Shown in pieces: positions 762 to 33,853 of a stretch of DNA of 64,000 nt. Each line of letters opens with the position of its first letter. The first letter of the stretch is position 1. Source of the stretch: a virus (lineage: Duplodnaviria; Caudoviricetes); the IMG/VR virus record IMGVR_UViG_3300032237_000809, positions 61,504 to 125,503 of that record; one strand, given 5' to 3'. Below the pieces are notes generated by a model. That model was given only the letters and a program-made list of their open reading frames with translations, searched no databases and was not told where the DNA came from. The position numbers and the translations under genes were made by a program.

Positions 762-1844
762 ATGAACTCTGAACAAATTAAAGATCTTCATCTACTCTAT
801 ACCGCAGTCTATGATGAAGATCTCAGAAAACAGTTTGATGAATATAACAATACCATCTATGACGAAGATATTGTAGAAGTTGCCACAGAGTACTTCTATG
901 CATATGGTCTGAATGATGATGGTATTGATATTCTGATTGAAAACATTGGTCTCGATTCTTTTGTGGAATTTGTTTATGATTTATCAGAAGATCTTTATGA
1001 TCTTACGGAAGCAAGAGCAGCAAGAAAAGCAAGGCCTGGTGGCAAAACTATTGAGCAAGTAAAAGCAGATATTGACGCCAAAGAAAAAAAAGCAGCAGCA
1101 AAGAAGGAAGCAAAGAAAAAAGTTACTACAGCAGCTACTGAGAAAACAGAAACAGAGAGAGTAAAACCAGAAACTCGTGGTCCTGAGAGTCAGGCAAAAG
1201 CACAACAACCAAAGGGAAAAAAACCTGTAAGAGATGCCATAGCAAGAACCATTCTTCAAGGTATTGAGCGTCATAATAAGGCAACAGCGACTGCAGGGCG
1301 CCTTGCTGGTGAAACTGGAGCAACTCTTGGTAGAATCGGTTCACTCGCTGCAGAGGCAGGTAGAAGGGCAGGTGAGCATATTAAAAAGCATGGATTGAAA
1401 TCTCTTGCACATGAAGAAGTTGAACTTTTGGCGAATCAACTTATTGAGGAAGGTTATGATCTGAGTGATTATACTTGGGATGATATGATTGAGATTTATG
1501 AAAAAACTGAGTCTAAGTATAAACCAAAAACCAAAGAAGAACTTGCAAGATATGTCTCTGCTCTTGATAGACTGCATCGTATGGCTACAGAAGTACGTGG
1601 ACCAGAACCATCATCAACTCCAGAGAAAAAAAGAAAACCAAAAACGGATATGAGAAATGTCCAAGTTCATGAAGATCTTTATGATGTAATTCTCTCACAT
1701 CTTATCGATGAAGGTTATGCTGATTCTGTAGAACGGGCAGAAGTTATTATGGTGAATATGAGTGAAGAGTGGAGAGATGGAATTCTTGATGAAGCAAATA
1801 GAGCAGACGATCATGTAACATCGAGTATGTATATGAGTAGTTAA
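762..1844 (+). CDS. Late modular protein, family member 1 (probable internal head protein)
   Basis: Shares EEGYDLxDYxW and HLIDEGYA...NMSEEWRD modules with ORFs 17774, 30838/30917 and 32318; Lys/Ala/Arg-rich middle. Confidence 0.7.
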   Translation: MNSEQIKDLHLLYTAVYDEDLRKQFDEYNNTIYDEDIVEVATEYFYAYGLNDDGIDILIENIGLDSFVEFVYDLSEDLYDLTEARAARKARPGGKTIEQVKADIDAKEKKAAAKKEAKKKVTTAATEKTETERVKPETRGPESQAKAQQPKGKKPVRDAIARTILQGIERHNKATATAGRLAGETGATLGRIGSLAAEAGRRAGEHIKKHGLKSLAHEEVELLANQLIEEGYDLSDYTWDDMIEIYEKTESKYKPKTKEELARYVSALDRLHRMATEVRGPEPSSTPEKKRKPKTDMRNVQVHEDLYDVILSHLIDEGYADSVERAEVIMVNMSEEWRDGILDEANRADDHVTSSMYMSS

Positions 1845-2005
1845 CCATCTACCACAAATGCAAAAAAAATATCGTAGGCAAGGTAGAGACTTTAAGGGAG
1901 TTTTGCATCGTGATGATTGGGAAACCCAAGGAGAACCAATAAGACAAAAGGCACATAAAGATAGAAGAGGTGTAAAATCATAAAACCACTTTCCAAACCG
2001 TCACA

Positions 2006-2030
2006 AGGGGCACTTACCTGCCCCTTTTTT
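2006..2030 (+). terminator. Rho-independent terminator overlapping the cobS promoter
   Basis: AGGGGCA-6nt-TGCCCCT followed by T-run; TATAAT at 2036-2041. Confidence 0.65.
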
Positions 2031-2075
2031 GTGTGTATAATAAGAGAGTTCAAATGAAACACACCTAACTACATT

Positions 2076-3215
2076 ATGTCTCGTAAAAATTCTGTGACCG
2101 ACGATCAACTGTTTACTGAACTCAAAGAACTGTTTGGTTCTGAATTTAGTGCTGGTGATATCCGTGGATATTGTGCTTTTAACAATCTTAATTATCAGAC
2201 CGTGACTCGCCGTCTGGAACCATTTAAAACTGATCGTGGTCGTTGGAATCTTGAAGTGACTCAAGAAAAAATTGACCAAATTGAGCATACCTTCCAATCC
2301 CCCGCCGCTCTTCCAAGTCTTCCAGTTGTGCAACAAAATCTTATTCCTGAAAAAGACAATACTTTTGTTAAATTTGGAAATTTTAACGATATTAAAAAAA
2401 TTATCTCTTCAAATCTTTTTTATCCGACGTTTATTACTGGTCTTTCTGGCAACGGAAAAACTTTCGGTATTGAGCAGGCATGTGCTCAACTGAAACGTGA
2501 AATGATCCGTGTCAATATTACAATTGAGACTGATGAAGACGATTTGATTGGTGGGTTCCGTCTTGTTAATGGTGAAACTGCCTGGCATAATGGTCCAGTC
2601 ATCGAAGCACTTCAACGTGGTGCAATTCTTCTTCTCGATGAGATTGATCTTGCATCGAATAAAATCATGTGTCTTCAATCCGTTCTTGAAGGTAAAGGAG
2701 TCTTTCTCAAAAAAATTGGTAAGTTTGTAAATCCTACTGAAGGATTCAACATTTTTGCCACTGCAAATACTAAAGGTAAGGGTTCTGATGATGGTCGCTT
2801 CATCGGCACCAACGTGCTCAATGAAGCGTTCCTGGAGAGGTTCCCAGTGACCTTTGAGCAGTCTTATCCTGCTCCTTCCACCGAACAGAAGATCCTTGAA
2901 GGCATTGCTCTGGACCTTGGTGTGGAAGATCGTGATTTCTGCAAGCGTCTGGTTGATTGGGGTGATGTGATTCGCAAGACCTTCTACGATGGTGGTATTG
3001 AAGAAATCATCAGCACCCGTCGTCTGGTTCATATCATTCGTGCCTACAGCATTTTTAATGACAAGGCAAAGGCAATTCAAGTTTGTATCAATCGTTTTGA
3101 TGATGAAACTAAGACTGCTTTCCTGGAACTCTATGATAAAATCGACGCTGATTTTGTAATGCCTTCTGAAGGTGAGCAAGTGACTTATAATATTGACAAT
3201 ATGCCACAAGTCTGA
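2076..3215 (+). CDS. cobS: CobS / MoxR-like AAA+ ATPase
   Basis: Walker A GLSGNGKT, Walker B LLLDEID, ATANT, NEAFLERF. Confidence 0.9.
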   Translation: MSRKNSVTDDQLFTELKELFGSEFSAGDIRGYCAFNNLNYQTVTRRLEPFKTDRGRWNLEVTQEKIDQIEHTFQSPAALPSLPVVQQNLIPEKDNTFVKFGNFNDIKKIISSNLFYPTFITGLSGNGKTFGIEQACAQLKREMIRVNITIETDEDDLIGGFRLVNGETAWHNGPVIEALQRGAILLLDEIDLASNKIMCLQSVLEGKGVFLKKIGKFVNPTEGFNIFATANTKGKGSDDGRFIGTNVLNEAFLERFPVTFEQSYPAPSTEQKILEGIALDLGVEDRDFCKRLVDWGDVIRKTFYDGGIEEIISTRRLVHIIRAYSIFNDKAKAIQVCINRFDDETKTAFLELYDKIDADFVMPSEGEQVTYNIDNMPQV

Positions 3216-3257
3216 TATGATAGGGGGAGGTAAACTATAATTTCCTTCCCCTTTACT

Positions 3258-3659
3258 ATGGAAAATGATCTTCAATTGACGTTAGATTTATTTGAATTTA
3301 CTATGAATAAAAACGAAAATACTGATGTAATTAATTTTACTAAAATTCCTATTAATACTATGAATGAACAAACTAATAAAAACGGATTTTGGAAATACAA
3401 TGAAGAGAAAATCCTGAAACAACTTGAAGAGTATATTGCAGGTACTTATAATCAACACTATGTTGATAGGACTGGTGGTGGTACTGAGCAAACATTGGAT
3501 AAGATTAAGCACAATCGTCGTGAAGGGTTTTGTGCCGGTAATGTGACCAAGTATATTGATCGGTATGATACTAAAGGAACTCCCCGTGCTGATTTGTTCA
3601 AAGTATTGCACTATACTATTCTCTTGATTAATCATCTTAATCTTGTTGAAAACAAATGA
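3258..3659 (+). CDS. Conserved hypothetical phage protein
   Basis: HY...GFCAGNVTKYIDRY...KG...DLFKVLHY pattern; true start may be downstream. Confidence 0.65.
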   Translation: MENDLQLTLDLFEFTMNKNENTDVINFTKIPINTMNEQTNKNGFWKYNEEKILKQLEEYIAGTYNQHYVDRTGGGTEQTLDKIKHNRREGFCAGNVTKYIDRYDTKGTPRADLFKVLHYTILLINHLNLVENK

Positions 3660-4342
3660 AACTGAAACCTAAAATTATGAAACTCTCAGACAATACTTTA
3701 GTTATTCTTAAAAACTTTGCTGGAATTAATAATTCCATTTTGGTAAAAGAAGGTAATCGCCTTCGCACTATTTCCGTAGCAAAAAATATTCTTGCCGAAG
3801 CGGATATTAGTGAAGAGTTTCCTCGTGAATTTGCCATTTATGATCTGAATCAATTTCTGAATGGACTTGGACTTCATCAAGATCCTGATTTGGATTTTGG
3901 TGAAACATCTCATATTACTATCCGTGAAGGTAAGCGTAGAGTAAAGTATTTCTATGCAGATCCTAATGTGATTATTTCTCCTCCTGATAAAGAAATTCAA
4001 CTTCCTTCTAGAGATGTTTGTTTTCATCTGGAAAGTGCTTCTCTTGAAAAACTTGTAAAAGCTGCAGCAGTTTATCAACTTCCGGATTTGTCTGCTGTTG
4101 GTGAAGCAGGTGTAATTCGTCTGGTTGTCCGTGACAAGAAAAACGATACTTCTAATGAATACTCTATTGTAGTTGGTGAAACTGATCAGGAATTCGTTTT
4201 CAATTTTAAAGTTGAAAATATTAAAATTATTCCTGGAGCATACGATGTGGTTGTGTCAAAAAAACTTCTGTCACAGTTCAGCAATAGCAAGTACAATTTG
4301 AAGTATTATATTGCTTTGGAACCTGATTCTACTTTTACTTGA
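3656..4342 (+). CDS. gp45: Sliding clamp
   Basis: MKLSDNT..LKNFAGINNSI, FAIYDLNQFL, C-terminal YYIALEPDS; start may be 3677. Confidence 0.95.
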   Translation: MKLKPKIMKLSDNTLVILKNFAGINNSILVKEGNRLRTISVAKNILAEADISEEFPREFAIYDLNQFLNGLGLHQDPDLDFGETSHITIREGKRRVKYFYADPNVIISPPDKEIQLPSRDVCFHLESASLEKLVKAAAVYQLPDLSAVGEAGVIRLVVRDKKNDTSNEYSIVVGETDQEFVFNFKVENIKIIPGAYDVVVSKKLLSQFSNSKYNLKYYIALEPDSTFT

Positions 4343-4767
4343 TGATATTTCCTTATTATTTGACACCTGAAGGAACAGAAATTCTACAATTAATTGTAAA
4401 AGCGCATTTTAAGATACAAGAAAATATTTCTTGGTGCTCCAATAAAGGTTATGCCGGAGCAATTATACGAGATAGTAAAACTTTCTTTATTTGTACAAAA
4501 AATATTTTTAAAGAAGATAACCCAAATAGTTTTTTAAATGAAACTGTTTATCACGAAGCAGTTCACGCAGCTCAAATATGTAAAGGTATGAAACCAATTG
4601 GGATTCCAATTGATGAAATGCCATTATCTTCAAATAAAATGGAAAATATCAATAAATCTATTGCTCTAACAAAAGATAAATCTACAAGAAGATTGGAGCA
4701 TGAAGCATATTGGTTAGAAGATAAACCAAAAGAAACTATTAAGTACCTTCGCAAATTTTGCTTTTAA
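4339..4767 (+). CDS. Putative zinc metallopeptidase-like protein
   Basis: HEAVH (HExxH) and downstream EHEA. Confidence 0.55.
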   Translation: MMIFPYYLTPEGTEILQLIVKAHFKIQENISWCSNKGYAGAIIRDSKTFFICTKNIFKEDNPNSFLNETVYHEAVHAAQICKGMKPIGIPIDEMPLSSNKMENINKSIALTKDKSTRRLEHEAYWLEDKPKETIKYLRKFCF

Positions 4768-4831
4768 TTATAAATATTTACGTTTGTAAGTATTCTTTTT
4801 ATAAATAGTTATGTAGTCAGAAGACAATCAA

Positions 4832-5413
4832 ATGTATTGTTTGGAATGCAATTTCACTCTTGGAAAAAGACAAAAAAAATTCTGTTCTCGCAAATGTATG
4901 AACGTATACAATGCAAGAGAATTTGGTATGAAAAATCGAGAGGAAAATCCAAATAGGTACAAAATTTGTAAAGAATGTAATCAATCTTTAAATCTTAATA
5001 AGTTTAGTTTAATTGAAAAATGGAATCCAAATTCTGACACTAAAAATACTTGCAAAAAATGTTCCATAAAAATAAAACAAACTGAAAAATTAAACAGAGA
5101 TTGGAAAGTTGATGCTGCCAAACTCCTTTATAAAAATATCAAATCACGATGCAAAAGAATAGGAAGAGAATTCTCTATTGAGTTAGAAGATATTATCATT
5201 CCAGAAAAATGTCCTGTGTTTGGATTTGATTTAAAAAGAGAAGATAGGCAAACTTGGATGTGCGCTCCAAGTGTCGATAGAATAGACAGTTCCAAAGGGT
5301 ATATAAAGGGAAATGTTACAGTTGTCAGCAGAAGAGCAAACATCCTTAAAAAAGATGCTACATTAGAAGAGTTAGAACAATTATTTAATTATTACAAAAC
5401 TTTGAGGAACTAA
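4832..5413 (+). CDS. Free-standing HNH-type homing endonuclease with Zn fingers
   Basis: CxxC pairs; CPVFG...PSVDRIDSSKGYIKGNV...RAN..K; TATAAATA at 4800-4807. Confidence 0.8.
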   Translation: MYCLECNFTLGKRQKKFCSRKCMNVYNAREFGMKNREENPNRYKICKECNQSLNLNKFSLIEKWNPNSDTKNTCKKCSIKIKQTEKLNRDWKVDAAKLLYKNIKSRCKRIGREFSIELEDIIIPEKCPVFGFDLKREDRQTWMCAPSVDRIDSSKGYIKGNVTVVSRRANILKKDATLEELEQLFNYYKTLRN

Positions 5414-5415
5414 CT

Positions 5416-5925: not shown

Positions 5926-5928
5926 ATT

Positions 5929-15704: not shown

Positions 15705-17036
15705 ATGGAAAGACTTGAACTTACAATTTTACGAAACTTGGTATATAATGAAGATTACTCTAGAAAAGTTATACCTTTTATACAACCAGACTATTTTGAA
15801 GAAAGGACTGAAAAAATTATATTTGAAGAAATTGTTAAGTTTATTGTAAAATATGGGTCAGCAATTACAATAGAGGCACTTGGAATCGAGATTCAAAATA
15901 GAACTGATTTAACAGAATCTGAAATCAAACAAATTCATGAACTTATTTCTAGTTTTCATAATGGTGTAGTAGAAAAACAATGGATTCTTGATACTACTGA
16001 AAAATGGTGTAGAGACCGAGCGATTTATCTTGCATTGATGGAATCTATTCATATTGCCGATGGTAATAATGAAAAGAAAAATCGTGATGCAATTCCTAGT
16101 ATTTTATCTGATGCTCTTGCAGTATCTTTTGATAATAATATAGGACATGATTATCTTGAAAATTATGAAGATAGGTATGAATTTTATCATCGTAAAGAAG
16201 ATAAAATTGAGTTTGATTTAGACTATTTTAATAAAATTACAAAAGGAGGTTTACCTAATAAAACTCTCAACATTGCTCTTGCTGGAACTGGTGTTGGAAA
16301 ATCTCTTTTCATGTGTCATGTTGCTAGTTCTGCTTTATTACAGGGTAGAAATGTTCTTTACATAACTCTTGAAATGGCAGAAGAAAGAATTGCTGAAAGA
16401 ATTGATGCAAATCTCTTCAATCTACCAATTCAACAACTGATTGATTTGCCAAAACATACGTTTGAAACTAAAGTAAATAGTATCTCTAAAAAGACTAGAG
16501 GTTCTTTAGTGATCAAAGAATATCCAACTGCTTCTGCACATTCTGGACATTTTAAAGCACTTCTTAATGAACTTGCTCTTAAAAAATCATTTAGACCTGA
16601 TATTATTTTTATTGACTATCTTAATATTTGTGCTTCTTCTAGGCATAAAGCAAATACCTCAGTCAATTCTTATACTTATATCAAGGCAATTGCTGAGGAA
16701 CTTCGTGGTCTTGCAGTTGAGTTTAATGTTCCCATTGTCTCTGCTACTCAGACCACTCGTTCAGGGTATTGCTTGGACTTGAAAACACAAGTTCAAACAC
16801 CGCAAGGACTGAAAGAACTTTCAAATATTCAAGTTGGAGATTTGGTGCTTTCAAATACTGGTTATAATGAAGTCCTAAATGTTTTTCCAAAATCCAAAAA
16901 GAAATCTTATAAGATTACTTTGGAAGATGGTAAAGAAATTATTTGTAGTGAAGAACACTTGTTCCCAACTCAAAATGGTGAAGTGAATATCAAAGGGGGT
17001 TTGAAAGAAGGTATGTCTCTTTATGTAAAAGAATAG
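15705..17036 (+). CDS. gp41: Replicative helicase N-terminal half fused to split-intein N fragment
   Basis: GTGVGKS, ITLEM, FIDYL, ATQTTRSGY then CLDLKT... intein and stop. Confidence 0.95.
   Translation: MERLELTILRNLVYNEDYSRKVIPFIQPDYFEERTEKIIFEEIVKFIVKYGSAITIEALGIEIQNRTDLTESEIKQIHELISSFHNGVVEKQWILDTTEKWCRDRAIYLALMESIHIADGNNEKKNRDAIPSILSDALAVSFDNNIGHDYLENYEDRYEFYHRKEDKIEFDLDYFNKITKGGLPNKTLNIALAGTGVGKSLFMCHVASSALLQGRNVLYITLEMAEERIAERIDANLFNLPIQQLIDLPKHTFETKVNSISKKTRGSLVIKEYPTASAHSGHFKALLNELALKKSFRPDIIFIDYLNICASSRHKANTSVNSYTYIKAIAEELRGLAVEFNVPIVSATQTTRSGYCLDLKTQVQTPQGLKELSNIQVGDLVLSNTGYNEVLNVFPKSKKKSYKITLEDGKEIICSEEHLFPTQNGEVNIKGGLKEGMSLYVKE
16770..17033 (+). mobile_element. Split intein IntN (88 aa), gp41-1 type
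   Basis: Cys1 CLDLKTQVQTPQG; block B CSEEHLFPT. Confidence 0.95.
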
Positions 17037-17085
17037 TATGTGTAAGTTTTACTTCTTATAAATAATAGTAGTATAACTTACTGAT

Positions 17086-17751
17086 ATGAAAGTAAAGATT
17101 TATCTAATTACCAACACAGCAGTCAATCCGCATATGTATTATGTTGGATTGACTAAAAATGAATTGGATAGAAGATTACAAGAACATATCACTCTTGGAA
17201 GGCATGAAGGAAATAAACTTCTGTCTGATGCTATTATTGAATATGGTAAAAGAAACTTTACTATTGAAGTGATAGAAGAAGTTGATGAAAGTGAAGCAAG
17301 AATAAAAGAAGATTATTATATTCGCAAATATAAATCTCATTATAGAGATGGATGTGGATATAATATGAAATATGAAACTTCTAATTATGAGAAACACTAT
17401 CACGGAGCAAATCAAGAACTAATAGAAGAGAATATTAGAAATGGTAGGGCGTGGAACTATGGAATAAGTTTTTCTACACAATCAAAAGAAAAAATGAGAA
17501 AAACTAAAAAGCATAGATATTCTCTTGGTGTTTATAAAAAGTTCAATACAAATCATTCACAAGAAACTAAAAATAAAATCGCAGAAAGTAAAAAAGGACA
17601 AAAACTTACAGAGGAACATAGAAAAAATATTTCTAAATCTTCTGTTGGTAGAACTTGGATTTATAATCCAGAGTTGAATGAAAGAAAGTTTGTAAAACAA
17701 GATGAGTTGGAAATGTTCTTGGAAAGTGGTTGGAGGAAAGGTAGATTATAA
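17086..17751 (+). CDS. GIY-YIG homing endonuclease with NUMOD3-like repeats
   Basis: KIYLITN...YVGLT...R..EH, E...I, GYN; HSQETKNKI..SKKG; TATAAATA at 17057-17064. Confidence 0.9.
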   Translation: MKVKIYLITNTAVNPHMYYVGLTKNELDRRLQEHITLGRHEGNKLLSDAIIEYGKRNFTIEVIEEVDESEARIKEDYYIRKYKSHYRDGCGYNMKYETSNYEKHYHGANQELIEENIRNGRAWNYGISFSTQSKEKMRKTKKHRYSLGVYKKFNTNHSQETKNKIAESKKGQKLTEEHRKNISKSSVGRTWIYNPELNERKFVKQDELEMFLESGWRKGRL

Positions 17752-17773
17752 ATAAACTTATAGTGTAAAAAAA

Positions 17774-18370
17774 ATGGACTCACAAGAATTACGCAATCTT
17801 CAAGAAGCATATTTGAAAGTTTGTGAACTTGATGAAGCAAATAGAGTTGAAAGACATTTAGGAATACATTCAAATACTCCAGAAAATGAATTGTCTAGAA
17901 TGAAACGCAGAGCGTCTGTTAGTGGCGTTGGAAGTGGAAAAAGTGATATAAATCCCGGAACCTTACGCATGAATAGAGGTGTCGCTAGAATGGTAACAAA
18001 AAGAAATAGAGGAAAATCACCTTCCGATCCAACATATACAAAAAGAAGAGGAATAGATCCACATGCCGATGTAAAATCTTGGAGAGATTCACCTTTAGGA
18101 TTACCAAAAGGGTATAAAGATCCACTTAATCCAAGAACTTCTAAAAATATTGGAAATAAAGTACAGGTTAAAACTAAACCCGCAAGTAAGTTATGGAGTA
18201 ATCCACATCAAGCATCCAGTAAAATAGTTAAATTTAGAAGAGAAGATTTTGACATCTACGATATCATCCTCTCACATCTTTTAGATGAAGGTTATGCCGA
18301 AACACCAGAAGCAGCAGAAGCAATTATGGTGAATATGAGTGAAGAATGGAGAGATAGTATTATTGGTTGA
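17774..18370 (+). CDS. Late modular protein, family member 2
   Basis: MDSQELRNLQEAY leader, basic middle, DIYDIILSHLLDEGYA...NMSEEWRD end; TATAAATA at 17747-17754. Confidence 0.75.
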   Translation: MDSQELRNLQEAYLKVCELDEANRVERHLGIHSNTPENELSRMKRRASVSGVGSGKSDINPGTLRMNRGVARMVTKRNRGKSPSDPTYTKRRGIDPHADVKSWRDSPLGLPKGYKDPLNPRTSKNIGNKVQVKTKPASKLWSNPHQASSKIVKFRREDFDIYDIILSHLLDEGYAETPEAAEAIMVNMSEEWRDSIIG

Positions 18371-18402
18371 TAAAATCATAAAATCTTTCTCAACCACTCA
18401 CC

Positions 18403-18431
18403 TTGCTTTTGGTGTGTGGTTTTGTTATAAT
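18403..18431 (+). promoter_or_regulatory. Sigma70-type promoter for the IntC-gp41C half
   Basis: TTGCTT-17 nt-TATAAT, 20 nt before ATG 18451; overlaps a hairpin terminator. Confidence 0.6.
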
Positions 18432-18450
18432 GTGAATAGGTAAGAACTCT

Positions 18451-18561
18451 ATGATGCTGAAAAAAATTCTAAAAATTGAAGAACTTGATGAAAGAGAACT
18501 TATAGATATTGAAGTGTCTGGAAATCATTTGTTTTATGCGAATGCTATTCTCACACATAAT
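18451..18561 (+). mobile_element. Split intein IntC (37 aa)
   Basis: Block F DIEV..NHLFYAN, terminal HN followed by Ser+1. Confidence 0.95.
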
Positions 18562-18876
18562 AGTAGCTCTGATGTTGAACTTACTGATACTTCAGAATCC
18601 TTCGGTCTTCCTGCTACTGCTGATCTTATGTTTGCTCTTATAAGTACAGAAGAGTTGGAAGAATTGGGACAAATTATGGTAAAACAACTTAAAAATAGAT
18701 ATAATGATCCGACAATTTATAAACGTTTTGTTGTTGGCATTGATCGTGCAAAAATGAGACTTTATGATGTAGAACAGTCCGCTCAAAAAGACATACTTGA
18801 CAGTGGACAAAAAGAGGAGTATAATTGCGAAGAAAAGACACCAAAAAAATTATTTGAGGGATTTAAATTTTCATGA
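18451..18876 (+). CDS. gp41: Split-intein C fragment fused to helicase C-terminal half
   Basis: MMLKKILKIEELDERELIDIEVSGNHLFYANAILTHN|SSSDV..TSESFGLPATAD..KQLKNRY. Confidence 0.95.
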   Translation: MMLKKILKIEELDERELIDIEVSGNHLFYANAILTHNSSSDVELTDTSESFGLPATADLMFALISTEELEELGQIMVKQLKNRYNDPTIYKRFVVGIDRAKMRLYDVEQSAQKDILDSGQKEEYNCEEKTPKKLFEGFKFS

Positions 18877-21162: not shown

Positions 21163-22518
21163 ATGAAAAGTTTTTTAAAATTTATAACCGAAGCAAATAG
21201 TAAAGCAGTTCAACAGGCAACTCGTATGGGACTTGTTACTGATGGGCATGGTGGATGGTATAATAAAGCAACAGGAGAATTTACCGCAAAAACTTTTCAA
21301 GGTGCATTAAAATTTTATAATAAAAGACAAATAATTGGTGGAAAAGATCCTGCACAAACTGAACAGGAAAAAAATCTTTCTCAAACATCTTATGCACCTC
21401 AACAACCAATCCCACAAGATCAAGTTCCTGTAGATCAGCAGCAACCAATCCCACAAGATCAAGTTCCTGTAGATCAGCAGCAGATGCAAGAACCAGTTCC
21501 ACAGGAACCATTTTCTCCACCACCAGTCGAAAAAACTTTAGGAACTTTGACGATTGCTTTTGGTCGCTTTAATCCACCAACCATAGGTCATCTTCAGTTA
21601 ATGGATACTGCTGCTGCATCTGCAGAACAAGATCAGAGTGACTATATTATTGTTCCTTCTCGTACTCAAGATGCAAAGAAAAATCCTTTGGATGCTGATA
21701 CAAAAATCTATTATATAAGAAAAATGTTTCCTCAACATAGTGAGAGGATTTATAATGATGTAAATTTAAGAACTATTTTTGATGTTCTCAAAAAGGCTCA
21801 TAATGATGGATATTCAAGCGTAAGAATTGTTGGTGGATCTGATAGGGTAAAAGAATTTGATAAATTGGCAAATAATTATAATGGAAATCTTTATCAATTT
21901 GATAATATTGACGTAATTTCTTCTGGAGATAGAGATCCTGATTCTGAAGGAGTTGAAGGAGTTTCTGCATCAAGAATGAGACTTGCAGCTGCTGAAGGAG
22001 ATTTTAAAACTTTTCGTATGGGACTTCCTCCTGAAGTTTCTAGAAAGGATGCAATAGAACTTTTTGATGTTCTTCGTCAATCTATGGGAATTGAGCAAAT
22101 ACAAGAAGAAGGTTATTATGTTTGGGAAATTGCTCCTAAATTTGATCTAAATTCTCTTCGTGAAAATTATATTTCAGAGAAAATTTTCCAGATTGGACAA
22201 TTAGTTGAGAATATGAATACGGGTCTTGTTGGGCGCATTATTCGTAGGGGAACTAATTATTTGATTTGTGTGACTGAAGGTGGAATGATGTTTAAATCCT
22301 GGATTAAGGATATGATGGAAACAAAGAAATATACAGAAGTTATGATGGATAGTGAAATGAGAGAACCAGGAAAACCAAATACGTTAGTTGGAACTCTTGG
22401 TGCATTTAAGAATTATGCGAGCAAAACTCCAGGTGCTATTGGAACTGGCGCAGAGAATTTACAACCGGGTGGAAATGCTTATGGTATTAATTTCATAAAT
22501 AGATTTAGAAAAAAGTAA
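21163..22518 (+). CDS. Cytidyltransferase-like protein with capsid-targeting-like N-terminus
   Basis: FGRFNPPTIGH (HxGH-type), VGGSDR, SASRMR; MKSFLKFITEA. Confidence 0.8.
   Translation: MKSFLKFITEANSKAVQQATRMGLVTDGHGGWYNKATGEFTAKTFQGALKFYNKRQIIGGKDPAQTEQEKNLSQTSYAPQQPIPQDQVPVDQQQPIPQDQVPVDQQQMQEPVPQEPFSPPPVEKTLGTLTIAFGRFNPPTIGHLQLMDTAAASAEQDQSDYIIVPSRTQDAKKNPLDADTKIYYIRKMFPQHSERIYNDVNLRTIFDVLKKAHNDGYSSVRIVGGSDRVKEFDKLANNYNGNLYQFDNIDVISSGDRDPDSEGVEGVSASRMRLAAAEGDFKTFRMGLPPEVSRKDAIELFDVLRQSMGIEQIQEEGYYVWEIAPKFDLNSLRENYISEKIFQIGQLVENMNTGLVGRIIRRGTNYLICVTEGGMMFKSWIKDMMETKKYTEVMMDSEMREPGKPNTLVGTLGAFKNYASKTPGAIGTGAENLQPGGNAYGINFINRFRKK
21403..21480 (+). repeat. Perfect 39-bp tandem duplication (QPIPQDQVPVDQQ x2)
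   Basis: 21403-21441 = 21442-21480, in frame. Confidence 0.9.
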
Positions 22519-27202: not shown

Positions 27203-29499
27203 GTAACGGAACACGGGTAGTTAAGAGAAATGGATCTGTTGAAGGTTTAGATTTAAATAAACTTCATTTGATGGTAGAAGAAGCATGTAAGGATCTGGCA
27301 GGAGTATCAGCATCACAAGTTGAAATGCAATCTGGTATTCAATTTTATGATGGAATTTCTACAGTAGAAGTTCAGGAAATTTTGATTCGCTCTGCTTCTG
27401 ACCTAATTGATCTTGAACATCCTAATTATCAATTTGTTGCTGCTCGTTTGCTTTTATTCGCTCTTCGTAAACAATTGTTTGGTCGTATGTATGAATGTCC
27501 AAATGTTCTTGAGCATACTAAAAAATGTGTAGAACTTGGTGTTTATGATGAAGAGATTCTTTCTCTATATAATGAGGAAGAGTTTGAAAAACTTCAATCA
27601 TTTGTTGATCATGATCGTGATTATCTTTTTACTTATGCAGGTCTTCGTCAGGTAGTTGATAAGTATTTGGTACAAGATCGTAGTAGTGGACAACTTTATG
27701 AAACTCCACAATTCATGTATCTTTTGATTGCTGCCACTATTTTTTCTAAATATCCAAAAGAAACACGTTTAGATTATGTTAAGAGGTATTATGATGCAAT
27801 CAGCAAACACAAGATCAACATCCCAACACCAATCATGGCAGGAGTCAGAACACCTCTTCGCCAATATGCTTCTTGTGTTCTCGTTGATGTTGATGATACC
27901 CTCAGGAGTATCGGTCACTCTGATTTGGCTATTTACGAATATGTTGCACAGAGAGCTGGTATCGGTATCAACGCAGGTAGAATCCGTGGCATCAACTCTA
28001 AAATCAGAGGTGGAGAGGTACAACACACAGGCATTATTCCCTTCCTTAAGAAGTTTGAAGCAACTGTCAGATCTTGCACACAAAACGGTATTAGAGGTGG
28101 TTCTGCTACAGTCTTTTTTCCTATCTGGCATCAAGAAATAAGTGATATTCTGGTCTTAAAAAATAATAAAGGAACTGAAGATAATCGTGTTCGTAAGTTA
28201 GACTATGGAATTCAACTCAGCAAAATCTTCTATGAACGATTCATTCAAAACGGAGAAATCACACTTTTCTCACCACACGATGTTCCTGGTCTTTATGATG
28301 CTTTTGGCACTGATAGATTTGACGACCTTTACGTGGGTTATGAACGAGATGCATCTGTTCCAAGAAAAACTATCGGTGCTCAAGAACTCTTTTTGGACCT
28401 TCTGAAGGAAAGAGCAGAAACTGGTCGTATTTACATTATGAATATTGACCATTGTAATTCTCATAGTCCTTTCCTTGATAAGATTTCAATGAGCAATCTT
28501 TGTATGGAAATACTTTTGCCGACTAAACCAATTCAACACATTGATGATCCAAATGGTGAAATTGCTCTTTGCATTCTTAGTGCTATCAATATTGGAAAGA
28601 TTAAAACCAATGAAGATCTTGAAGTTCTTTGTGATCTTGCCATTAGAAGTCTTGATGAACTTATTGATTTTCAAGGATATCCCGTTAAAGCAGCAGAAAT
28701 CGCAACCAAAGCGCGACGTTCACTTGGAGTAGGTTATATTGGTCTTGCACACTATCTTGCCAAGAATAATGTCAAATATGATGATCAGAATGCTTGGCAA
28801 TTGGTTCATGATTTAACTGAGGCATTCCAATATTATCTAATCAAGGCAACCGTAAATCTTGCAAAAGAAAAAGGGGCATGTGCATATTCTCATCGTACCA
28901 AGTACGGTCAAGGAATTCTGCCAATTGATACCTATAAAAAGGATGTTGATGAATTGGTTGAAAATGTGCTAAAATATGATTGGGAAGCACTTCGGGAAGA
29001 GGTAAAAATTTATGGAGTCAGAAACTCCACTCTCTCAGCACAAATGCCCTCCGAGAGCAGTTCAGTCGTCTCCAATGCCACAAATGGAATTGAACCACCT
29101 CGCGGATATCTATCCATTAAGAAGTCCAAGAAAGGTCCTCTTAAGCAAATTGTCCCACAGTTTGGAACACTCAAAAACAATTATACGTTGCTTTGGGATA
29201 TGCCTAGCAATCGTGGTTATATTAGTATTGTTGCAGTTATGCAGAAGTTCTTCGATCAAGCGATTTCTGGAAACTGGTCCTATAATCCGGGCAATTATCC
29301 GAATAATGAAGTTCCTGTTAGCGTGATGGCACAAGATATGCTTACGTGCTTTAAGTATGGGCATAAAACTGCATATTATCAAAACACTTATGATAATAAA
29401 ACTGATGAAGTGGTAGATGAACCAAAGCAAGAACTCAATTCACTTCTTGATGATATTATGAGTTCTGATGAAACTAGTTGCGATAGTTGCTCAATTTAA
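27199..29499 (+). CDS. nrdA: Ribonucleotide reductase class Ia alpha subunit
   Basis: ATP cone VVKRNG, SCVL, SNLCMEI, MPSESSS, YY, C-terminal CDSC. Confidence 0.97.
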   Translation: MSNGTRVVKRNGSVEGLDLNKLHLMVEEACKDLAGVSASQVEMQSGIQFYDGISTVEVQEILIRSASDLIDLEHPNYQFVAARLLLFALRKQLFGRMYECPNVLEHTKKCVELGVYDEEILSLYNEEEFEKLQSFVDHDRDYLFTYAGLRQVVDKYLVQDRSSGQLYETPQFMYLLIAATIFSKYPKETRLDYVKRYYDAISKHKINIPTPIMAGVRTPLRQYASCVLVDVDDTLRSIGHSDLAIYEYVAQRAGIGINAGRIRGINSKIRGGEVQHTGIIPFLKKFEATVRSCTQNGIRGGSATVFFPIWHQEISDILVLKNNKGTEDNRVRKLDYGIQLSKIFYERFIQNGEITLFSPHDVPGLYDAFGTDRFDDLYVGYERDASVPRKTIGAQELFLDLLKERAETGRIYIMNIDHCNSHSPFLDKISMSNLCMEILLPTKPIQHIDDPNGEIALCILSAINIGKIKTNEDLEVLCDLAIRSLDELIDFQGYPVKAAEIATKARRSLGVGYIGLAHYLAKNNVKYDDQNAWQLVHDLTEAFQYYLIKATVNLAKEKGACAYSHRTKYGQGILPIDTYKKDVDELVENVLKYDWEALREEVKIYGVRNSTLSAQMPSESSSVVSNATNGIEPPRGYLSIKKSKKGPLKQIVPQFGTLKNNYTLLWDMPSNRGYISIVAVMQKFFDQAISGNWSYNPGNYPNNEVPVSVMAQDMLTCFKYGHKTAYYQNTYDNKTDEVVDEPKQELNSLLDDIMSSDETSCDSCSI

Positions 29500-29518
29500 A
29501 AATAAATAAGGAAAAAGT

Positions 29519-30661
29519 ATGATTGATAATATGACAGTTTTCAATTCCCATGAAGTTGATACCAAAAAGCAACCAATGTTTTTTGGACAACCTCTTGGCA
29601 TTCAACGATATGATACTTACAAGTATCCTATTTTTGATAAATTGACTCAACAACAATTAAGTTATTTTTGGCGTCCTGAAGAAATATCACTTCAAAAAGA
29701 CCGTGGTGATTATCAAACACTTCGACCCGAACAGAAACATATTTTTACTTCTAATCTAAAATATCAAATTATGTTAGATTCCATTCAAGGTCGTGGACCA
29801 GGAATGGCATTTGCTCCCTACTGCTCACTTCCAGAATTAGAAGCGTGTATGAAGGTTTGGGAATTTATGGAAATGATTCACTCACGATCTTATACATATA
29901 TTATCAAAAATATATATTCAGATCCTTCGGATGTGTTTGATACTATTCTTAGAGATGAAAAAATTCTTGAACGCGCATATAGTGTAACCGAAGCATATGA
30001 TGATTTTATCAATAGTGCTCAACATTATGGAACTTCTGAACTTTGGAAACACGCTCAAGAACAAGTTCCCTATGCACAGGATCAAAGATATGAACTCAAA
30101 AGAAAGCTCTTTAGAGCAGTTGCAAATGTTAATATTCTTGAAGGTATTCGTTTTTACGTCAGTTTTGCTTGCAGTTTTGCATTTGGCGAACTCAAACTTA
30201 TGGAAGGAAGTGCAAAAATCATCAGTCTGATTGCGCGTGACGAGAATCAACATCTAGTCATTACTCAAAATATTTTGAACAAATGGAAAGAAAGTGATGA
30301 TCCTGATATGAAGAAAATCATGGATGAAGAAGAACCATGGGTATATAAGACCTTTGAAAAAGCAGTCAATCAAGAGAAACTTTGGGCAGAATATCTGTTC
30401 AAAGATGGTTCTATGATTGGTCTGAATGATAAACTTCTTCAGCAATATGTTGAATGGATTGCAAATCGTCGTATGAGGGCGATTGGTTTGAAACCTCTTT
30501 ATGATATTCCAGCAAAAAATAATCCACTTCCTTGGACGGAGCATTGGATTTCTTCCAAAGGATTGCAAGTAGCTCCACAAGAAGTGGAAGCGGAACAATA
30601 TTTAATTGGAGGAATTAAACAAGATGTTACCAAAGATACTTTCTCAGGATTCCAATTATGA
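29519..30661 (+). CDS. nrdB: Ribonucleotide reductase class Ia beta subunit
   Basis: FWRPEE, EMIHSRSY, LEGIRFY, RDENQH. Confidence 0.97.
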   Translation: MIDNMTVFNSHEVDTKKQPMFFGQPLGIQRYDTYKYPIFDKLTQQQLSYFWRPEEISLQKDRGDYQTLRPEQKHIFTSNLKYQIMLDSIQGRGPGMAFAPYCSLPELEACMKVWEFMEMIHSRSYTYIIKNIYSDPSDVFDTILRDEKILERAYSVTEAYDDFINSAQHYGTSELWKHAQEQVPYAQDQRYELKRKLFRAVANVNILEGIRFYVSFACSFAFGELKLMEGSAKIISLIARDENQHLVITQNILNKWKESDDPDMKKIMDEEEPWVYKTFEKAVNQEKLWAEYLFKDGSMIGLNDKLLQQYVEWIANRRMRAIGLKPLYDIPAKNNPLPWTEHWISSKGLQVAPQEVEAEQYLIGGIKQDVTKDTFSGFQL

Positions 30662-30785
30662 TGAATGGGTAGAACAGGAAATTTTGAATGCCTTTAAAGA
30701 TGCTGCAGAAGTAGATGAATTTATTTTTGGTGATTATAATTATGAAGAAGACTGGTTAGGTAAAATGAATAATGATATCAATTGA
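30624..30785 (+). CDS. Small acidic hypothetical protein overlapping nrdB end
   Basis: GGAGG upstream; MLPKILSQDSNYDEWVEQEILNAFKDAAEVDEFIFGDY...*; followed by terminator. Confidence 0.5.
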   Translation: MLPKILSQDSNYDEWVEQEILNAFKDAAEVDEFIFGDYNYEEDWLGKMNNDIN

Positions 30786-30899
30786 GAGTCCTTTGGGACT
30801 CTTTTTTTATAAATAAAATTATAAAAAGGTATATTAAATGGAAAGAATTACATCGAATCAAGTAGTTGATTTAATGGAGGCATATCAGGCAGTATATGT

Positions 30900-31003
30900 T
30901 CCTCAAGAAAATTTAAATGAAGAATTGGTCTGGGAAGAAGTTGAAAATTGGTCCTCAAGAAAATTTAAATGAAGAATTGGTCTGGGAAGAAGTTGAAAAT
31001 TGG
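30900..31003 (+). repeat. Perfect 52-bp tandem duplication
   Basis: 30900-30951 identical to 30952-31003. Confidence 0.92.
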
Positions 31004-31514
31004 GTAAATTCTCTTTTAGAAGAAGGATATGACTTGGGAGATTATGCTTGGGAAGAAATGTATGAGGAATATTTGAGTGAAGTTCCCATGACTGGTAGCA
31101 ATCGTCCCACTAAATTAAGTGACCCGTTAGCAAATACAGGACGCGCTATAGGAAGTGCAGCACGTTCTTTTGTTACGGGTTCCTCTAGACCAGGCAATAC
31201 TGGATCTCAATCTACGAGGGCAACACAACCTTCACCAGGAACTTCGACTGGTGGGGGAGGATATGCTGCCGGCCGTACTACAAGTTCACCGGTAACACCA
31301 TATCGTGCAAATGATCCTAGAAGAACTGATACTAGTACAAGATCAAGATTTGCTCGTCCAATGAATGCAGGAACTCCAAGTACAGTTGCCGTCAGAGGAA
31401 CTGGTGGATCTTCTACACAAAGACCACCAATTGGATCTTTACCTGCAAGTGCAAGACAACCAACACAATATCCAGCAGGAGTTTCTACTGGTGTTGGTGG
31501 TGGAAATGCTGGTG

Positions 31515-31712
31515 CCTCTAGACCCGCTCCTGCTGCCCCTGCTAGACCAGTTGCTAGACCCTCTGCTGCCGCTCCTAGACCCGCTGCTAGTGCCCCTGCT
31601 GCCGCTCCTAGACCAGTTGCTAGACCGTCTGCTGCTCCTGCTCCTAGTGTCCCTAGATCCGCTACTAGTGCCCCTGCTGCCGCTCCTAGACCCGCTGCTA
31701 GTGCTCCTAGTA
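31515..31712 (+). repeat. Imperfect coding repeats (Pro/Ala/Arg/Ser-rich)
   Basis: Recurrent gctcctagacc / gctagtgcccctgctgcc units encoding PAAAPRP.. Confidence 0.75.
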
Positions 31713-32317
31713 TATCAAAATCTACATCTCAAGCACCTAGTACATCCCCTGCTGCAACAACTGGTAATCCACCATTAGCACCAAAACCATTACCCCCAAT
31801 CATGGGTAAACCAAGTCTTTCATCGCAAGCAGCAGAAATTCGTGCCATGAGACAAAGATCTCAACAACGTATTATCTCACAAGGTGGAACTCCAGCAACT
31901 GCATTGGTTCAAAGTTTTGATCCATTTGATGTTGTATTGGGACATCTAATTGATGAAGGTTATGCTGATACTGAAGAATCAGCACTCCAAATTATGGCAA
32001 ATATGAGTGAAGAGTGGAGAGATGGAATTCTTGATGAAGCAAAAACTGTTATGAGTGTGACATCACCTTCTGAAAAATCCAGAAGATTAAATATATCCAA
32101 AGCTAAACCTTCAGAAAATTTGGAAGGTTAAAGAAGACTGTCTGCTGCCAGAGATATGAAACAACAGGATGTTGATCGTAGGGCTCCTCAAATTGAAAAA
32201 AAAAAAATTAAAAGAAGACATAATATTAATTGAAGACTACTTTCCAAACTGTTCATATAGAGGTCTTCGGACCTCTTTTTTTTATAAATAAGTTTATACA
32301 GAAAATATTTTATTAAA

Positions 32318-33853
32318 ATGTCTAACCTATCAACAGAAGTTTTTGGAGATATGAATTTTCTTTATGAGCATATTGCAACTAAAGAAAATGAAAAACTTAA
32401 TGAAAACTCTGAATACTATGACGAAGAATTTGCAGAACTTGTAGAGAATATTATTTCTACTATTTCTTTATCAATGGTCTATGAAGGTTATAGTGCAGAA
32501 GGAATTTTATCATTTCTTGCAGATTTTTCAGAAGAAGATATCGTTGAAAGATATTTAAATTTTGATGAAAATATTCTTACGGAAAGTGTAGTTCCTGAAG
32601 AGTATATTGTTGAACAATTAGATATTTTTGATAACGCCATTTCTGAAGGTTTAGGAACAGTAATTGGAAGAGTTGCTAAAGGTGCAGCTTCCCTGGCAGG
32701 AAGAATTGTTTCAAAACCTGCAAGAATGAAGGTTGCACAAAAACTCATGACTAGCACAAATCCTGCTAGAACAGGAAAGGCAGTTGATAGATTGGCAAGA
32801 ATGAAGTTGAACAAGGCAGGAGCTCCTGCGGATGTGACTAAAGGTTTAGTAGATGCTGCACCAAATATTTCAACAAAAGCTAGATTAATAGCAACTGCTC
32901 CTGTAATGGGTAAGGTCGTTAAGGGTGTACAAAAAGTAAAAGATATTGCCAGAGGTGCAAAAGCAGCATTAACGGGTTCAACTGCTAAAAAAATTGGTTT
33001 GGGTGCTGCAGCATTAGGTGCTGCTACTGGAGCAGGTTATATTGGTGGTAAGATGTCGGGAGCAGGTGGTGGTCAAGGATCTTCACCAGCAATTGCAAAA
33101 TCAACAGGTAAACCCTCTGACAATTTTATGCAAGGTAGTTCTCTTGCTAAACTTGGTGGAAGAGAAGGTAGAGTTAAAGGTGGAGAATTTAGAAGTATTA
33201 ATTGGACGCAACAATCTAGAGATAGGTATAACGCAGCAAATCCATCTACAAAACCTACAGCATCTGCTGCATCTACACCTTCTGCTCCTAGTGGCAGTGG
33301 TGGTGGTTCTGCTGCATCTTCTGGTGGCGGTGGCGGTGGTGCTGGAACAAGAGCACCTTCTGCTGCAAGAGCATCTTCTCCATCAAAAGCATCCTCTGCT
33401 ACAAAGGCAAAAGAAACGGGTAAAACTCCAGCAGGAGAGACACCAATGCAGACTTGGGCAAGAACTAATCCAAAACTTGCTGCTAAAGTAAAACTTGGTC
33501 AGTCTGGATACGATGAAATTTCTGCAAAAAGAACTGTACCTGGACCTTATGAAAAACAGGATCAAACTCCAACAACTGGACCAGAACCAACAGAAGCACA
33601 AAAGACTCAAGCAGGATCAGATGTTGCTGCATATCAGGCAGCAGAAAAGGAAAGATTTAATAAAAAGCAAAAAGAAGTAGCAGCATTAACACAGAAAGAA
33701 TCTTATGATGCATATGATTTGGTAATTGAATATTTACTTCATACTGGACATGCAGATACAATCTCTGAAGCAGAATATGTAATATCAAATTTTGATTCTG
33801 ATATGCTTGATACTCTTATTGAATCTACAGCAATCTGGATTGAAAATCTTTGA
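32318..33853 (+). CDS. Late modular protein, family member 4
   Basis: Acidic N-terminus, basic Gly/Ala/Ser-rich middle, degenerate end module YDAYDLVIEYLLHTGHADT..EAEY; TATAAATA at 32283-32290. Confidence 0.7.
   Translation: MSNLSTEVFGDMNFLYEHIATKENEKLNENSEYYDEEFAELVENIISTISLSMVYEGYSAEGILSFLADFSEEDIVERYLNFDENILTESVVPEEYIVEQLDIFDNAISEGLGTVIGRVAKGAASLAGRIVSKPARMKVAQKLMTSTNPARTGKAVDRLARMKLNKAGAPADVTKGLVDAAPNISTKARLIATAPVMGKVVKGVQKVKDIARGAKAALTGSTAKKIGLGAAALGAATGAGYIGGKMSGAGGGQGSSPAIAKSTGKPSDNFMQGSSLAKLGGREGRVKGGEFRSINWTQQSRDRYNAANPSTKPTASAASTPSAPSGSGGGSAASSGGGGGGAGTRAPSAARASSPSKASSATKAKETGKTPAGETPMQTWARTNPKLAAKVKLGQSGYDEISAKRTVPGPYEKQDQTPTTGPEPTEAQKTQAGSDVAAYQAAEKERFNKKQKEVAALTQKESYDAYDLVIEYLLHTGHADTISEAEYVISNFDSDMLDTLIESTAIWIENL

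What the first reader, a model, noticed from the sequence alone, without database searches (positions are those of the whole stretch)
762..33853. Dispersed family of late genes: shared acidic modules around unrelated basic payloads, with signs of module shuffling
Seen: four genes (762, 17774, 30838, 32318), each behind its own TATAAATA. They share a leader (DLHLLYTAVY / NLQEAYLKV / DLMEAYQAVY), a module NxLxEEGYDLxDYxW (762 and 30838) and an end module D(L/I/P)(Y/F)DxxLxHLxDEGYA...IMxNMSEEWRD (degenerate in 32318). The basic K/R/A/G-rich segments between the modules are unrelated and begin right after (L/I)xE sites (LTE|A, LDE|A, LSE|V, ISE|G). At DNA level 1755-1798 and 32000-32043 are identical over 44 nt including silent sites, and 1785-1803 equals 17828-17846 at an LDEANR payload junction. 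Established: T4 prohead protease cuts after (I/L)xE and internal proteins are injected with the DNA. Inference: the acidic modules target and release variable peptides in the head and also serve as recombination boxes, forming a diversifying cargo system.
Basis: partly seen in the sequence, partly recalled or inferred. Interest (0 to 1): 0.8.

Follow-up and report, generated by a model that had tools for sequence, protein, structure and literature searches.

The report
Modular late proteins: likely cyanophage head cargo
This uncultured T4-like cyanophage carries five copies of a huge, unnamed, virus-only gene family whose proteins alternate short acidic helical modules with long basic disordered segments that always begin right after a glutamate; they are probably packed into the phage head and cut there, but no experiment shows this yet.

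Summary
All four genes sit behind TATAAATA and share the stated leader and modules. The 44-nt and 19-nt DNA identities are exact.

Three corrections:
- "Gene 30838" is split by a private 52-nt tandem duplication.
- The tail of gene 762 is a frameshifted payload remnant.
- A fifth member lies 1.5 kb upstream of the window.

The end module defines a very large family: 4013 clusters at 50% identity. It has no Pfam name, and a scan for close relatives found nothing in 185,579 prokaryote genomes.

- Position +6 after the module's Trp is Glu, or Asp then Glu, in 310 of 314 modules followed by more protein. It is never Glu in the 32 modules that end the protein.
- The same payloads recur right after that Glu behind different upstream elements, which shows segment swapping.

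The phage encodes a gp21-type protease, and its capsid protein has an FLSE site.

Against the idea:
- No virion data exist.
- The payloads of 762 and 32318 are conserved orthologues, not diversifying.
- The leader differs from the T4-type targeting sequence found on another gene of this genome.

Other windows of this scan have reported the same family on other DNA.

Verdict: a real family, a probable protease-processed head cargo, and a new variant of the T4 internal-protein theme.

The parts
725..732 (+). T4-type late promoter TATAAATA of gene 762
762..1844 (+). Family member 1 (360 aa), lying between the HExxH/vWA-like gene and cobS
   Evidence: more than 1400 homologues; PHROG 3708
762..1010 (+). 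Leader (LHLLYTAVY) plus conserved acidic N-domain ending in an invariant L-T-E; net charge -20
1011..1412 (+). Basic payload 1 (net +18, pI 10.6); orthologous and conserved among relatives
1413..1493 (+). Mid module EEVExxxNxLIEEGYDLSDYTWDDMIE
   Evidence: D5
1494..1667 (+). Hypervariable linker between the mid and end modules
   Evidence: column conservation 0.16
1668..1802 (+). End module, predicted as three helices, ending ILDE|ANR
1837..1983 (+). Frameshifted remnant of a third payload (QKKYRRQGRDF...RGVKS), homologous to the payload that follows LDEANK in P0127 and P0235
2005..2026 (+). Terminator-like hairpin closing the 762 unit
17747..17754 (+). Late promoter TATAAATA of gene 17774
17774..18370 (+). 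Family member 2 (198 aa), the canonical form: leader, one payload, terminal module. It lies inside the fractured gp41 locus.
17774..17836 (+). Canonical leader MDSQELRNLQEAYLKVCELDE|
   Evidence: 110 of 149 representatives carry it
17837..18238 (+). Basic payload (net +21, pI 11.5)
18239..18367 (+). Terminal end module ending ...WRDSIIG-stop, with no Glu at the junction position
30784..30803 (+). Terminator hairpin whose T-run runs into the late promoter
30808..30815 (+). Late promoter TATAAATA of gene 30838
30838..30972 (+). 44-aa ORF holding the leader (DLMEAYQAVY), cut off from the body by a frameshift
30897..31000 (+). 52-nt tandem duplication (two copies, 98% identical) that shifts the frame; relatives have a single copy
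   Evidence: D7
30917..32131 (+). Body ORF of family member 3 (404 aa)
30986..31081 (+). Mid module ending EEYLSE|VPMTG
   Evidence: D5
31082..31912 (+). Basic payload rich in Pro, Ala, Ser and Arg (net +27, pI 12), with internal repeats at 31485-31712
   Evidence: D1
31913..32047 (+). End module ending ILDE|AKT, followed by a short recurrent tail payload (TVMSVTSPS...)
32259..32276 (+). Terminator hairpin between members 3 and 4
32283..32290 (+). Late promoter TATAAATA of gene 32318
32318..33853 (+). Family member 4 (511 aa), divergent; positional counterpart of P-SSM2 PSSM2_211/212 after nrdB
32318..32647 (+). Acidic N-region with ILTE| and AISE| sites (net -25)
32648..33697 (+). Basic payload rich in Gly, Ala and Ser (net +35), partly conserved; includes a Gly/Ala-rich hydrophobic stretch
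33698..33835 (+). Divergent end module (YDLVIEYLLHTGHAD...ISNFDSDMLDTLIE)
   Evidence: E = 1e-11 with an independent profile
33877..33899 (+). Terminator hairpin closing the 32318 unit

Best explanation
The genes belong to a very large, unnamed, virus-only family of late genes of T4-like cyanophages.

Anatomy. Each protein is a chain. It starts with an N-terminal acidic leader (M..LxEAYxxVY..LDE). After that, long basic disordered payloads alternate with short acidic helical modules. The commonest module is a 42-residue three-helix unit, xDxYDxxLSHLLDEGYAxxxxxAExIMxNMSEEWRxSI(V/L)E.

Proposed mechanism. The acidic elements carry the precursor into the prohead core and mask the basic charge. 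The phage's gp21-type prohead protease then cuts after the (I/L/V)-x-Glu that ends the leader and each module. The basic peptides stay with the packaged DNA and are probably injected with it.

Evolution. Because every payload is delimited by such a Glu junction, payloads can be moved between paralogues and between phages without breaking the system. This has happened often.

Shown here: the family, its late promoters, the junction rule and the payload swapping. Inferred: packaging, cleavage and fate of the peptides.
For: 1. Family size. The end-module profile finds 4013 representatives at 50% identity, 2398 of them at E <= 1e-10. There is no Pfam or NCBIfam name. A scan for close relatives found no match in 185,579 prokaryote genomes. 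The nearest Atlas clusters are all viral.

2. Late expression. TATAAATA lies before all four window genes and before 88 of 105 unique relatives, against 67 of 349 other ORFs.

3. Junction rule. In 310 of 314 modules followed by more protein, an [LIVM]-x-E occurs within 10 residues after the Trp, 295 of them ending 6-7 residues after it. In the 32 modules that end the protein, that position is Gly, Gln, Asn, Asp or Ser and never Glu. Among the 50% representatives alone the counts are 146 of 151 against 0 of 24. Close orthologues of 762 differ in just this way: P0005 and P0009 end ...SIIGG-stop, while P0006 reads ...GILE|AKIDKE.

4. Payload starts are fixed at the Glu. E|ATAMAKRG, E|GYKRFPY and E|GAAGDVAARAQKLANQ occur after a leader, after a full module and after a truncated module. 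55 such pairs were found.

5. The enzyme is present. A Peptidase_S77 (gp21) gene lies at G000:C1:46664-47116. The phage's gp23 carries EFLSE|NVPT in the N-terminal stretch where T4 gp23 has SFLTE|AEIGG. That the T4 site is the cleavage site comes from my own knowledge. T4 gp21 cuts after L/I-x-E (PMC9026906).

6. Head targeting exists in this phage. An RlpA-like gene starts MKTFKQFMTE|AT, against T4 ipIII/ipII MKTYQEFIAE|A.

7. Charge pattern. Acidic parts have pI about 4 and payloads pI 10.6-12.
Against: - No proteomic or N-terminal data exist for any member. The one proteome that could cover members (S-CRM01, PMC4185292) is not held.
- S-PM2 and Syn9, whose virion proteomes are published, gave no match to the end-module profile. 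The family is therefore not a universal head component.
- [LI]-x-E is not depleted inside payload cores: 126 observed against 112 expected.
- On the N-side of modules a Glu is common (110 of 163), but the P3 residue is not Leu or Ile.
- The leader does not resemble the T4-type targeting sequence that the same genome uses elsewhere.
- The main payloads of 762 and 32318 are conserved, which suggests defined functions rather than a free cargo library.
- The sets used for the junction rule are not phylogenetically independent.
Confidence: 0.5

Rival explanations
1. The proteins are not packaged. They are late cytoplasmic proteins in which LisH-like acidic modules dimerise, tethering basic disordered arms that bind nucleic acid, for example to organise or condense DNA before packaging or to act on the host. 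The junction Glu is structural (helix continuation) and is not a cleavage site.
For: - Pfam LisH matches the first helix and the EGY turn of the module in 6 of 149 representatives. Two of them are above the curated cut-off: P0162 at 24.3 bits and P0176 at 25.4 bits, against 21.6.
- The module folds as a small three-helix unit at pLDDT 80.
- The payloads are strongly basic and predicted disordered.
- Many proteins carry two modules.
- There are no virion data.
Against: - A structural Glu should also be kept in terminal modules, but it is 0 of 32 there.
- Payload N-termini are conserved exactly from the residue after Glu, as expected for released peptides.
- The window's own proteins give no LisH hit at E <= 1.
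- Foldseek finds nothing.
Confidence: 0.2
2. The proteins are substrates or partners of the neighbouring HExxH-containing, S-SRM01-'peptidase'-like protein and the CobS/MoxR AAA+ ATPase, not of gp21.
For: Two members flank that large gene directly upstream of cobS, and the same order is kept in S-SRM01. The gene carries an HECGH motif. CobS is an AAA_5/CbbQ-type ATPase.
Against: Three of the five members lie elsewhere: inside the gp41 locus and after nrdB. Relatives sit in many contexts. Pfam finds no peptidase or vWA domain in the neighbour. The Glu-P1 rule matches the gp21 family.
Confidence: 0.07
3. The shared modules are mainly selfish or neutral recombination handles kept alike by gene conversion. 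The genes are fast-decaying ORFans without a common function.
For: - There is excess synonymous identity between paralogous modules.
- Two of the five copies are damaged: the 52-nt duplication and the frameshifted tail.
- Family ORFs lie next to GIY-YIG endonuclease genes more often than other ORFs do, 27% against 15%.
Against: - Module residues are conserved at the protein level across more than 4000 clusters.
- 762 and 32318 have hundreds of full-length orthologues at 40-84% identity.
- Late promoters are retained.
- The junction rule is a protein-level regularity.
Confidence: 0.08

Closest known systems
Phage T4 internal proteins IPI, IPII and IPIII with their capsid targeting sequence (CTS)
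   Same: - Late genes with a short conserved N-terminal propeptide ending in (I/L)-x-Glu.
- Unrelated, mostly basic mature parts.
- Cargoes vary between related phages while the targeting sequence is kept (PMC3012670, PMC9026906).
- A gp21-type protease is encoded.
   Different: - The leader is about 21 residues and unlike MKTYQEFIAE. The T4-like CTS of this genome sits on another gene.
- The proteins carry extra internal or C-terminal acidic modules and several payloads per chain, like a polyprotein.
- The genes are dispersed in replication-gene regions rather than at an IP locus.
- Packaging is unproven.
Processed inner-body and ejection proteins of giant phages phiKZ, 201phi2-1 and SPN3US
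   Same: Many head proteins are cut after Glu by a gp21 homologue at several sites, with few other determinants, and the propeptides are removed after assembly (PMC9026906, PMC5694885).
   Different: There is no sequence relation. The motif there is S/A-x-E. Those proteins are large and folded, and were shown by mass spectrometry to be in the head.
T4 Alt, processed at both termini
   Same: It is a precedent for a C-terminal as well as an N-terminal propeptide removed by gp21 (PMC9026906), as proposed here for terminal modules.
   Different: Alt is an enzyme with a folded domain. The family payloads are disordered and basic.
PeSL cassettes of T4-type phages (promoter plus stem-loop flanking ORFans; PMC2839356)
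   Same: The family genes are self-contained units: hairpin terminator, promoter, gene, terminator. They sit in varied genome places, including inside a fractured gene.
   Different: The promoter here is the late TATAAATA, not an early sigma-70 type. The shuffling documented here happens inside the coding sequence, at Glu junctions.
LisH dimerisation motif (PF08513)
   Same: The first helix and turn of the module (L..YLL.EGYA.T...A) fit the LisH profile in a few members.
   Different: Most members, including all in the window, do not reach the threshold. There is a third helix (NMSEEWRxSI). No structural match was found.

Membership tests
T4 CTS / internal-protein system | N-terminal capsid targeting sequence of about 10 residues resembling MKTYQEFIAE | tested here: not met
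   The family leader is M..LxEAYxxVY..LDE. T4 ipIII/ipII read MKTYQEFIAE. The CTS-like MKTFKQFMTE of this genome is on an RlpA-like gene.
T4 CTS / internal-protein system | Propeptide ends in (L/I)-x-Glu and is removed by the prohead protease | tested here: inconclusive
   The sites are present and positioned as expected: LTE|, LDE|, LSE|, ISE|. The junction rule gives 310 of 314 against 0 of 32. Cleavage itself cannot be tested with these tools.
T4 CTS / internal-protein system | gp21-type prohead protease encoded by the same phage | tested here: met
   PF03420 match of 127.7 bits at G000:C1:46664-47116.
T4 CTS / internal-protein system | Late transcription | tested here: met
   TATAAATA lies 27-37 nt upstream of all four genes and upstream of 88 of 105 relatives. 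This is a sequence motif only; there are no expression data.
T4 CTS / internal-protein system | Protein present inside the mature head and injected | not testable with these tools
   No proteome covering a member could be read.
PHROG 3708 (unknown function) | Significant match to the PHROG profile | tested here: met
   762 at 1.3e-11, 17774 at 1.7e-6, 30917 at 1.9e-10; no match for 32318.
LisH motif (PF08513) | Score above Pfam's curated cut-off of 21.6 bits | tested here: not met
   No hit for the window proteins at E <= 1. Only 2 of the 10 relatives scanned exceed the cut-off.
PeSL regulatory cassettes | Early sigma-70-type promoter combined with a stem-loop, flanking the gene | tested here: not met
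   The stem-loops are present, but the promoter is the late TATAAATA.

The most novel reading that the evidence does not exclude
T4-like cyanophages run a combinatorial head-cargo system. Acidic, possibly dimerising, modules act as packaging handles and charge masks. The prohead protease releases a set of basic peptides from polyprotein-like precursors. The Glu junctions double as safe joints at which peptide units are exchanged between genes and phages, giving each phage its own injected peptide repertoire, for example to condense DNA or to counter host defences.
Probability: 0.3. Interest if true: 0.85.

Novelty: new variant of a known kind. Interest (0 to 1): 0.65.

Why it matters
If the proteins are processed head cargo, one of the largest unannotated gene families of aquatic T4-like phages (more than 4000 clusters at 50% identity) gets a function. 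The T4 internal-protein principle would extend to cyanophages in a richer, polyprotein form.

The work also yields a simple sequence rule, Glu at the junction only when a payload follows. That rule predicts the exact N-termini that mass spectrometry should find. The conserved leader and module could serve as tags for loading foreign proteins into cyanophage capsids.

Even if packaging is wrong, the documented swapping of payload units at defined protein junctions is an unusually clean case of intragenic modular evolution in phages.

Tried and rejected
- Pfam, NCBIfam and PDB sequence searches gave no meaningful hit.
- The AlphaFold model of the whole 762 protein is poor, at pLDDT 52.
- The module alone folds at pLDDT 80, but Foldseek against the PDB gives only chance-level rows with E > 2.
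- Depletion of [LI]-x-E inside payloads was tested as a signature of protease exposure and was not found. The test is confounded by undetected acidic elements inside the 'payload' segments.
- P0202, with 21 'module' stretches, is a spurious low-complexity repeat.
- The mid module and the N-domains are not detectably homologous to the end module.
- Programmed frameshifting was considered for both broken genes and judged unlikely. At 762 two separate changes are needed.
- Misassembly as the source of the 44-nt identity is rejected, because the whole 125-nt module is homologous and widely conserved.
- Literature searches for virion proteomes covering a member failed. S-CREM1, S-CREM2, S-PM2 and Syn9 gave no match to the end-module profile, and the S-CRM01 paper is not held.
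Full report
**Setting.** The window is the right half of a 125.5-kb IMG/VR virus contig (GC 32.5%, estimated 58% complete). It comes from a T4-like cyanophage. The nearest named relative is the freshwater Synechococcus phage S-SRM01 (Kyanoviridae), at about 79% nucleotide identity over part of the region.

**Observation.** ORFs lie at 762-1844 (360 aa), 17774-18370 (198 aa) and 32318-33853 (511 aa).
- The third gene is not one ORF. A 52-nt tandem duplication (30897-30948 / 30949-31000, 98% identical) shifts the frame. The leader therefore ends up in a 44-aa ORF (30838-30972) and the body in 30917-32131.
- Relatives in 80 viral loci read straight through with one copy of PQE..EEQVWEEVENW. The duplication is private to this assembly, either as a real variant or as an artefact.
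- TATAAATA precedes every gene by 27-37 nt. The window holds 18 copies against 8.9 expected.
- The 44-nt and 19-nt identities are exact. Between the end modules of 762 and 30838, 27 of 31 identical residues use the same codon, against 18.6 expected. The 14-codon run has P about 3e-4.
- A profile scan of the whole contig finds a fifth member 1.5 kb upstream of the window (L002:4491-4964), between gp46 and a large HExxH-containing gene.
- The divergent module of 32318 is confirmed with a profile built only from 175 modules of other proteins (E = 1e-11).

**Anatomy.**
- Acidic parts have net charge -10 to -20 and pI about 4. They alternate with basic parts of net charge +18 to +35 and pI 10.6-12. 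The borders lie at DLTE|ARAARK, ELDE|ANR, EYLSE|VPM and AISE|GLG.
- Hairpin terminators abut the late promoters or close the units at 2005-2026, 30784-30803, 32259-32276 and 33877-33899. Three of the four genes are thus self-contained late cassettes set among replication genes (cobS, nrdB). No hairpin was found around 17774, in the gp41 locus.
- AlphaFold gives a poor model for the whole 762 protein (pLDDT 52). The end module alone forms three short helices at pLDDT 80.

**How big is the family?**
- The end-module profile hits 4013 representatives at 50% identity, 2398 of them at E <= 1e-10. Many proteins carry two modules.
- There is no Pfam or NCBIfam family. PHROG 3708 ('unknown function') covers three of the four window genes.
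- A scan of 185,579 prokaryote genomes for close relatives finds nothing. The nearest Atlas clusters are all viral.
- Cultured carriers include S-SRM01 (4 members, same positions as here), S-CRM01 (g93, g94, g291, g292) and P-SSM2 (PSSM2_140, and PSSM2_212 after nrdB).
- S-PM2, Syn9, P-SSM4, P-SSM7, S-CREM1 and S-CREM2 gave no end-module match.
- 110 of 149 representatives begin with the leader M(N/D)SQ(E/D)LRNLQEAYL(D/E)VY..LDE. Gene 17774 shows this almost letter for letter.

**Are the payloads variable?** Only in part.
- 762 and 32318 each have hundreds of full-length orthologues at 40-84% identity.
- In 762, the N-domain ending in an invariant L-T-E and the first basic payload are conserved.
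- Only the linker between the mid and end modules, and the tail after the end module, are hypervariable.
- Across the family, 306 payload segments from 149 representatives fall into 141 clusters, of which 94 are singletons.

**Junction rule (new).**
- After the module's ...EEW, an [LIVM]-x-E occurs within 10 residues in 310 of 314 modules followed by more protein. In 295 of these it ends 6-7 residues after the Trp.
- In the 32 modules that end the protein, the +6 position is Gly 27, Gln 2, and Asn, Asp and Ser one each. It is never Glu.
- Among the 50% representatives alone the counts are 146 of 151 against 0 of 24.
- Near-identical orthologues of 762 differ in exactly this way: P0005 and P0009 read ...SIIGG-stop, while P0006 reads ...GILE|AKIDKE.
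- A Glu needed for folding would be kept at the C-terminus too. A Glu needed only when something follows fits a P1 cleavage residue.

**Payload swapping (new).**
- The same payloads start at the residue after Glu but behind different upstream elements. Examples are VDE|ATAMAKRG (leader), SIVE|ATAMAKRG and IIE|ATAMAKRG (module), LGE|GYKRFPY against SICE|GYKRFPY, and ELDE|GAAENVANRAQKLA against HLLDE|GAAGDVAKRAQKLA, the last inside a truncated module. 55 such pairs were found.
- In the window itself, the 19-nt LDEANR identity marks the start of one payload type present after the leader of 17774 and after the end module of 762.
- In 762 that payload has decayed. Its remainder (QKKYRRQGRDFKGVLH...RGVKS) lies in the +1 frame at 1837-1983, still inside the transcription unit, and matches the payload of P0127 and P0235.

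**Link to the head.**
- The contig encodes a gp21-type protease (PF03420, 127.7 bits).
- Its gp23 carries EFLSE|NVPT in the N-terminal stretch where T4 gp23 has SFLTE|AEIGG. That the T4 site is the cleavage site comes from my own knowledge.
- T4 gp21 cuts after L/I-x-E, and the ten-residue CTS of the internal proteins targets varied cargo into the core (PMC9026906, PMC3012670).
- Following a lead from an earlier scan note, I confirmed that an RlpA-like gene next to gp23 starts MKTFKQFMTE|AT. T4 ipIII and ipII start MKTYQEFIAE|A.
- CTS-type targeting therefore exists in this phage, but the family leader is a different sequence.

**Points against, and gaps.**
- No virion proteome covering a member could be read.
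- [LI]-x-E is not depleted inside payloads: 126 observed against 112 expected.
- The Glu common on the N-side of modules (110 of 163) lacks Leu or Ile at P3.
- Pfam LisH matches the first helix and turn of the module in 6 of 149 representatives, two of them above the cut-off. This supports a rival in which the modules are dimerisation units of unprocessed late proteins. The window proteins do not match LisH, and Foldseek finds nothing.

**Verdict.** The family, its late promoters, the junction rule and the intragenic swapping are shown. Packaging and cleavage are inferred, at about 0.5. The system works like the T4 CTS/internal-protein system, but it fails the membership test on the CTS itself, and it adds internal modules and several payloads per chain. 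I class it as a new variant of a known kind. Other windows of this scan have reported the same family on other genomes, with a similar reading.

Noticed in passing
window 30897-31000: A 52-nt tandem duplication (one mismatch) frameshifts the 30838 gene and detaches its leader. Relatives have one copy. It is either a recent mutation or an assembly artefact.
   Followed up: partly
window 1837-1983: A frameshifted remnant of a basic payload lies downstream of the stop of 762 and upstream of the terminator. It is homologous to payloads of P0127 and P0235.
   Followed up: yes
window 15705-18876: The gp41 helicase is fractured by a split intein: N-half 15705-17036, GIY-YIG/NUMOD3 endonuclease 17086-17751, C-half 18451-18876. 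Family gene 17774 sits in the gap as a passenger. Of five other fractured gp41 loci, all have the endonuclease, but only the closest relative (L099) has a family passenger.
   Followed up: partly
window 33962-34411: A SegE-type GIY-YIG endonuclease gene (PF19835, E = 4e-54) lies directly downstream of 32318. In 80 related loci, 27% of family ORFs lie within 300 nt of a GIY-YIG-like ORF, against 15% of other ORFs.
   Followed up: partly
L094:5074-5460 (G000:C1:51073-51459, outside the window): An RlpA-like protein starts MKTFKQFMTE|AT, close to the T4 ipIII/ipII capsid targeting sequence MKTYQEFIAE|A. It is a candidate head-packaged wall-degrading enzyme.
   Followed up: partly
L002:5043-6599 continuing to window 722: A large protein with an HECGH motif, annotated 'peptidase' in S-SRM01, has no Pfam hit. 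It lies upstream of CobS/MoxR-type ATPase gene 2076-3215 and is flanked by two family members. The order is conserved in S-SRM01.
   Followed up: no
window 31485-31712: Imperfect 9-33-nt periodic repeats encode APRPAASAPAAAPRPVARPSAA-like units inside the payload of 30838.
   Followed up: no
window 32990-33052: A conserved Gly/Ala-rich hydrophobic stretch (KKIGLGAAALGAATGAGYIGG) sits inside the 32318 payload and might insert into membranes.
   Followed up: no
window 21400-21477: A 39-nt tandem repeat (two copies, 97% identical) encodes QQPIPQDQVPVDQ.
   Followed up: no
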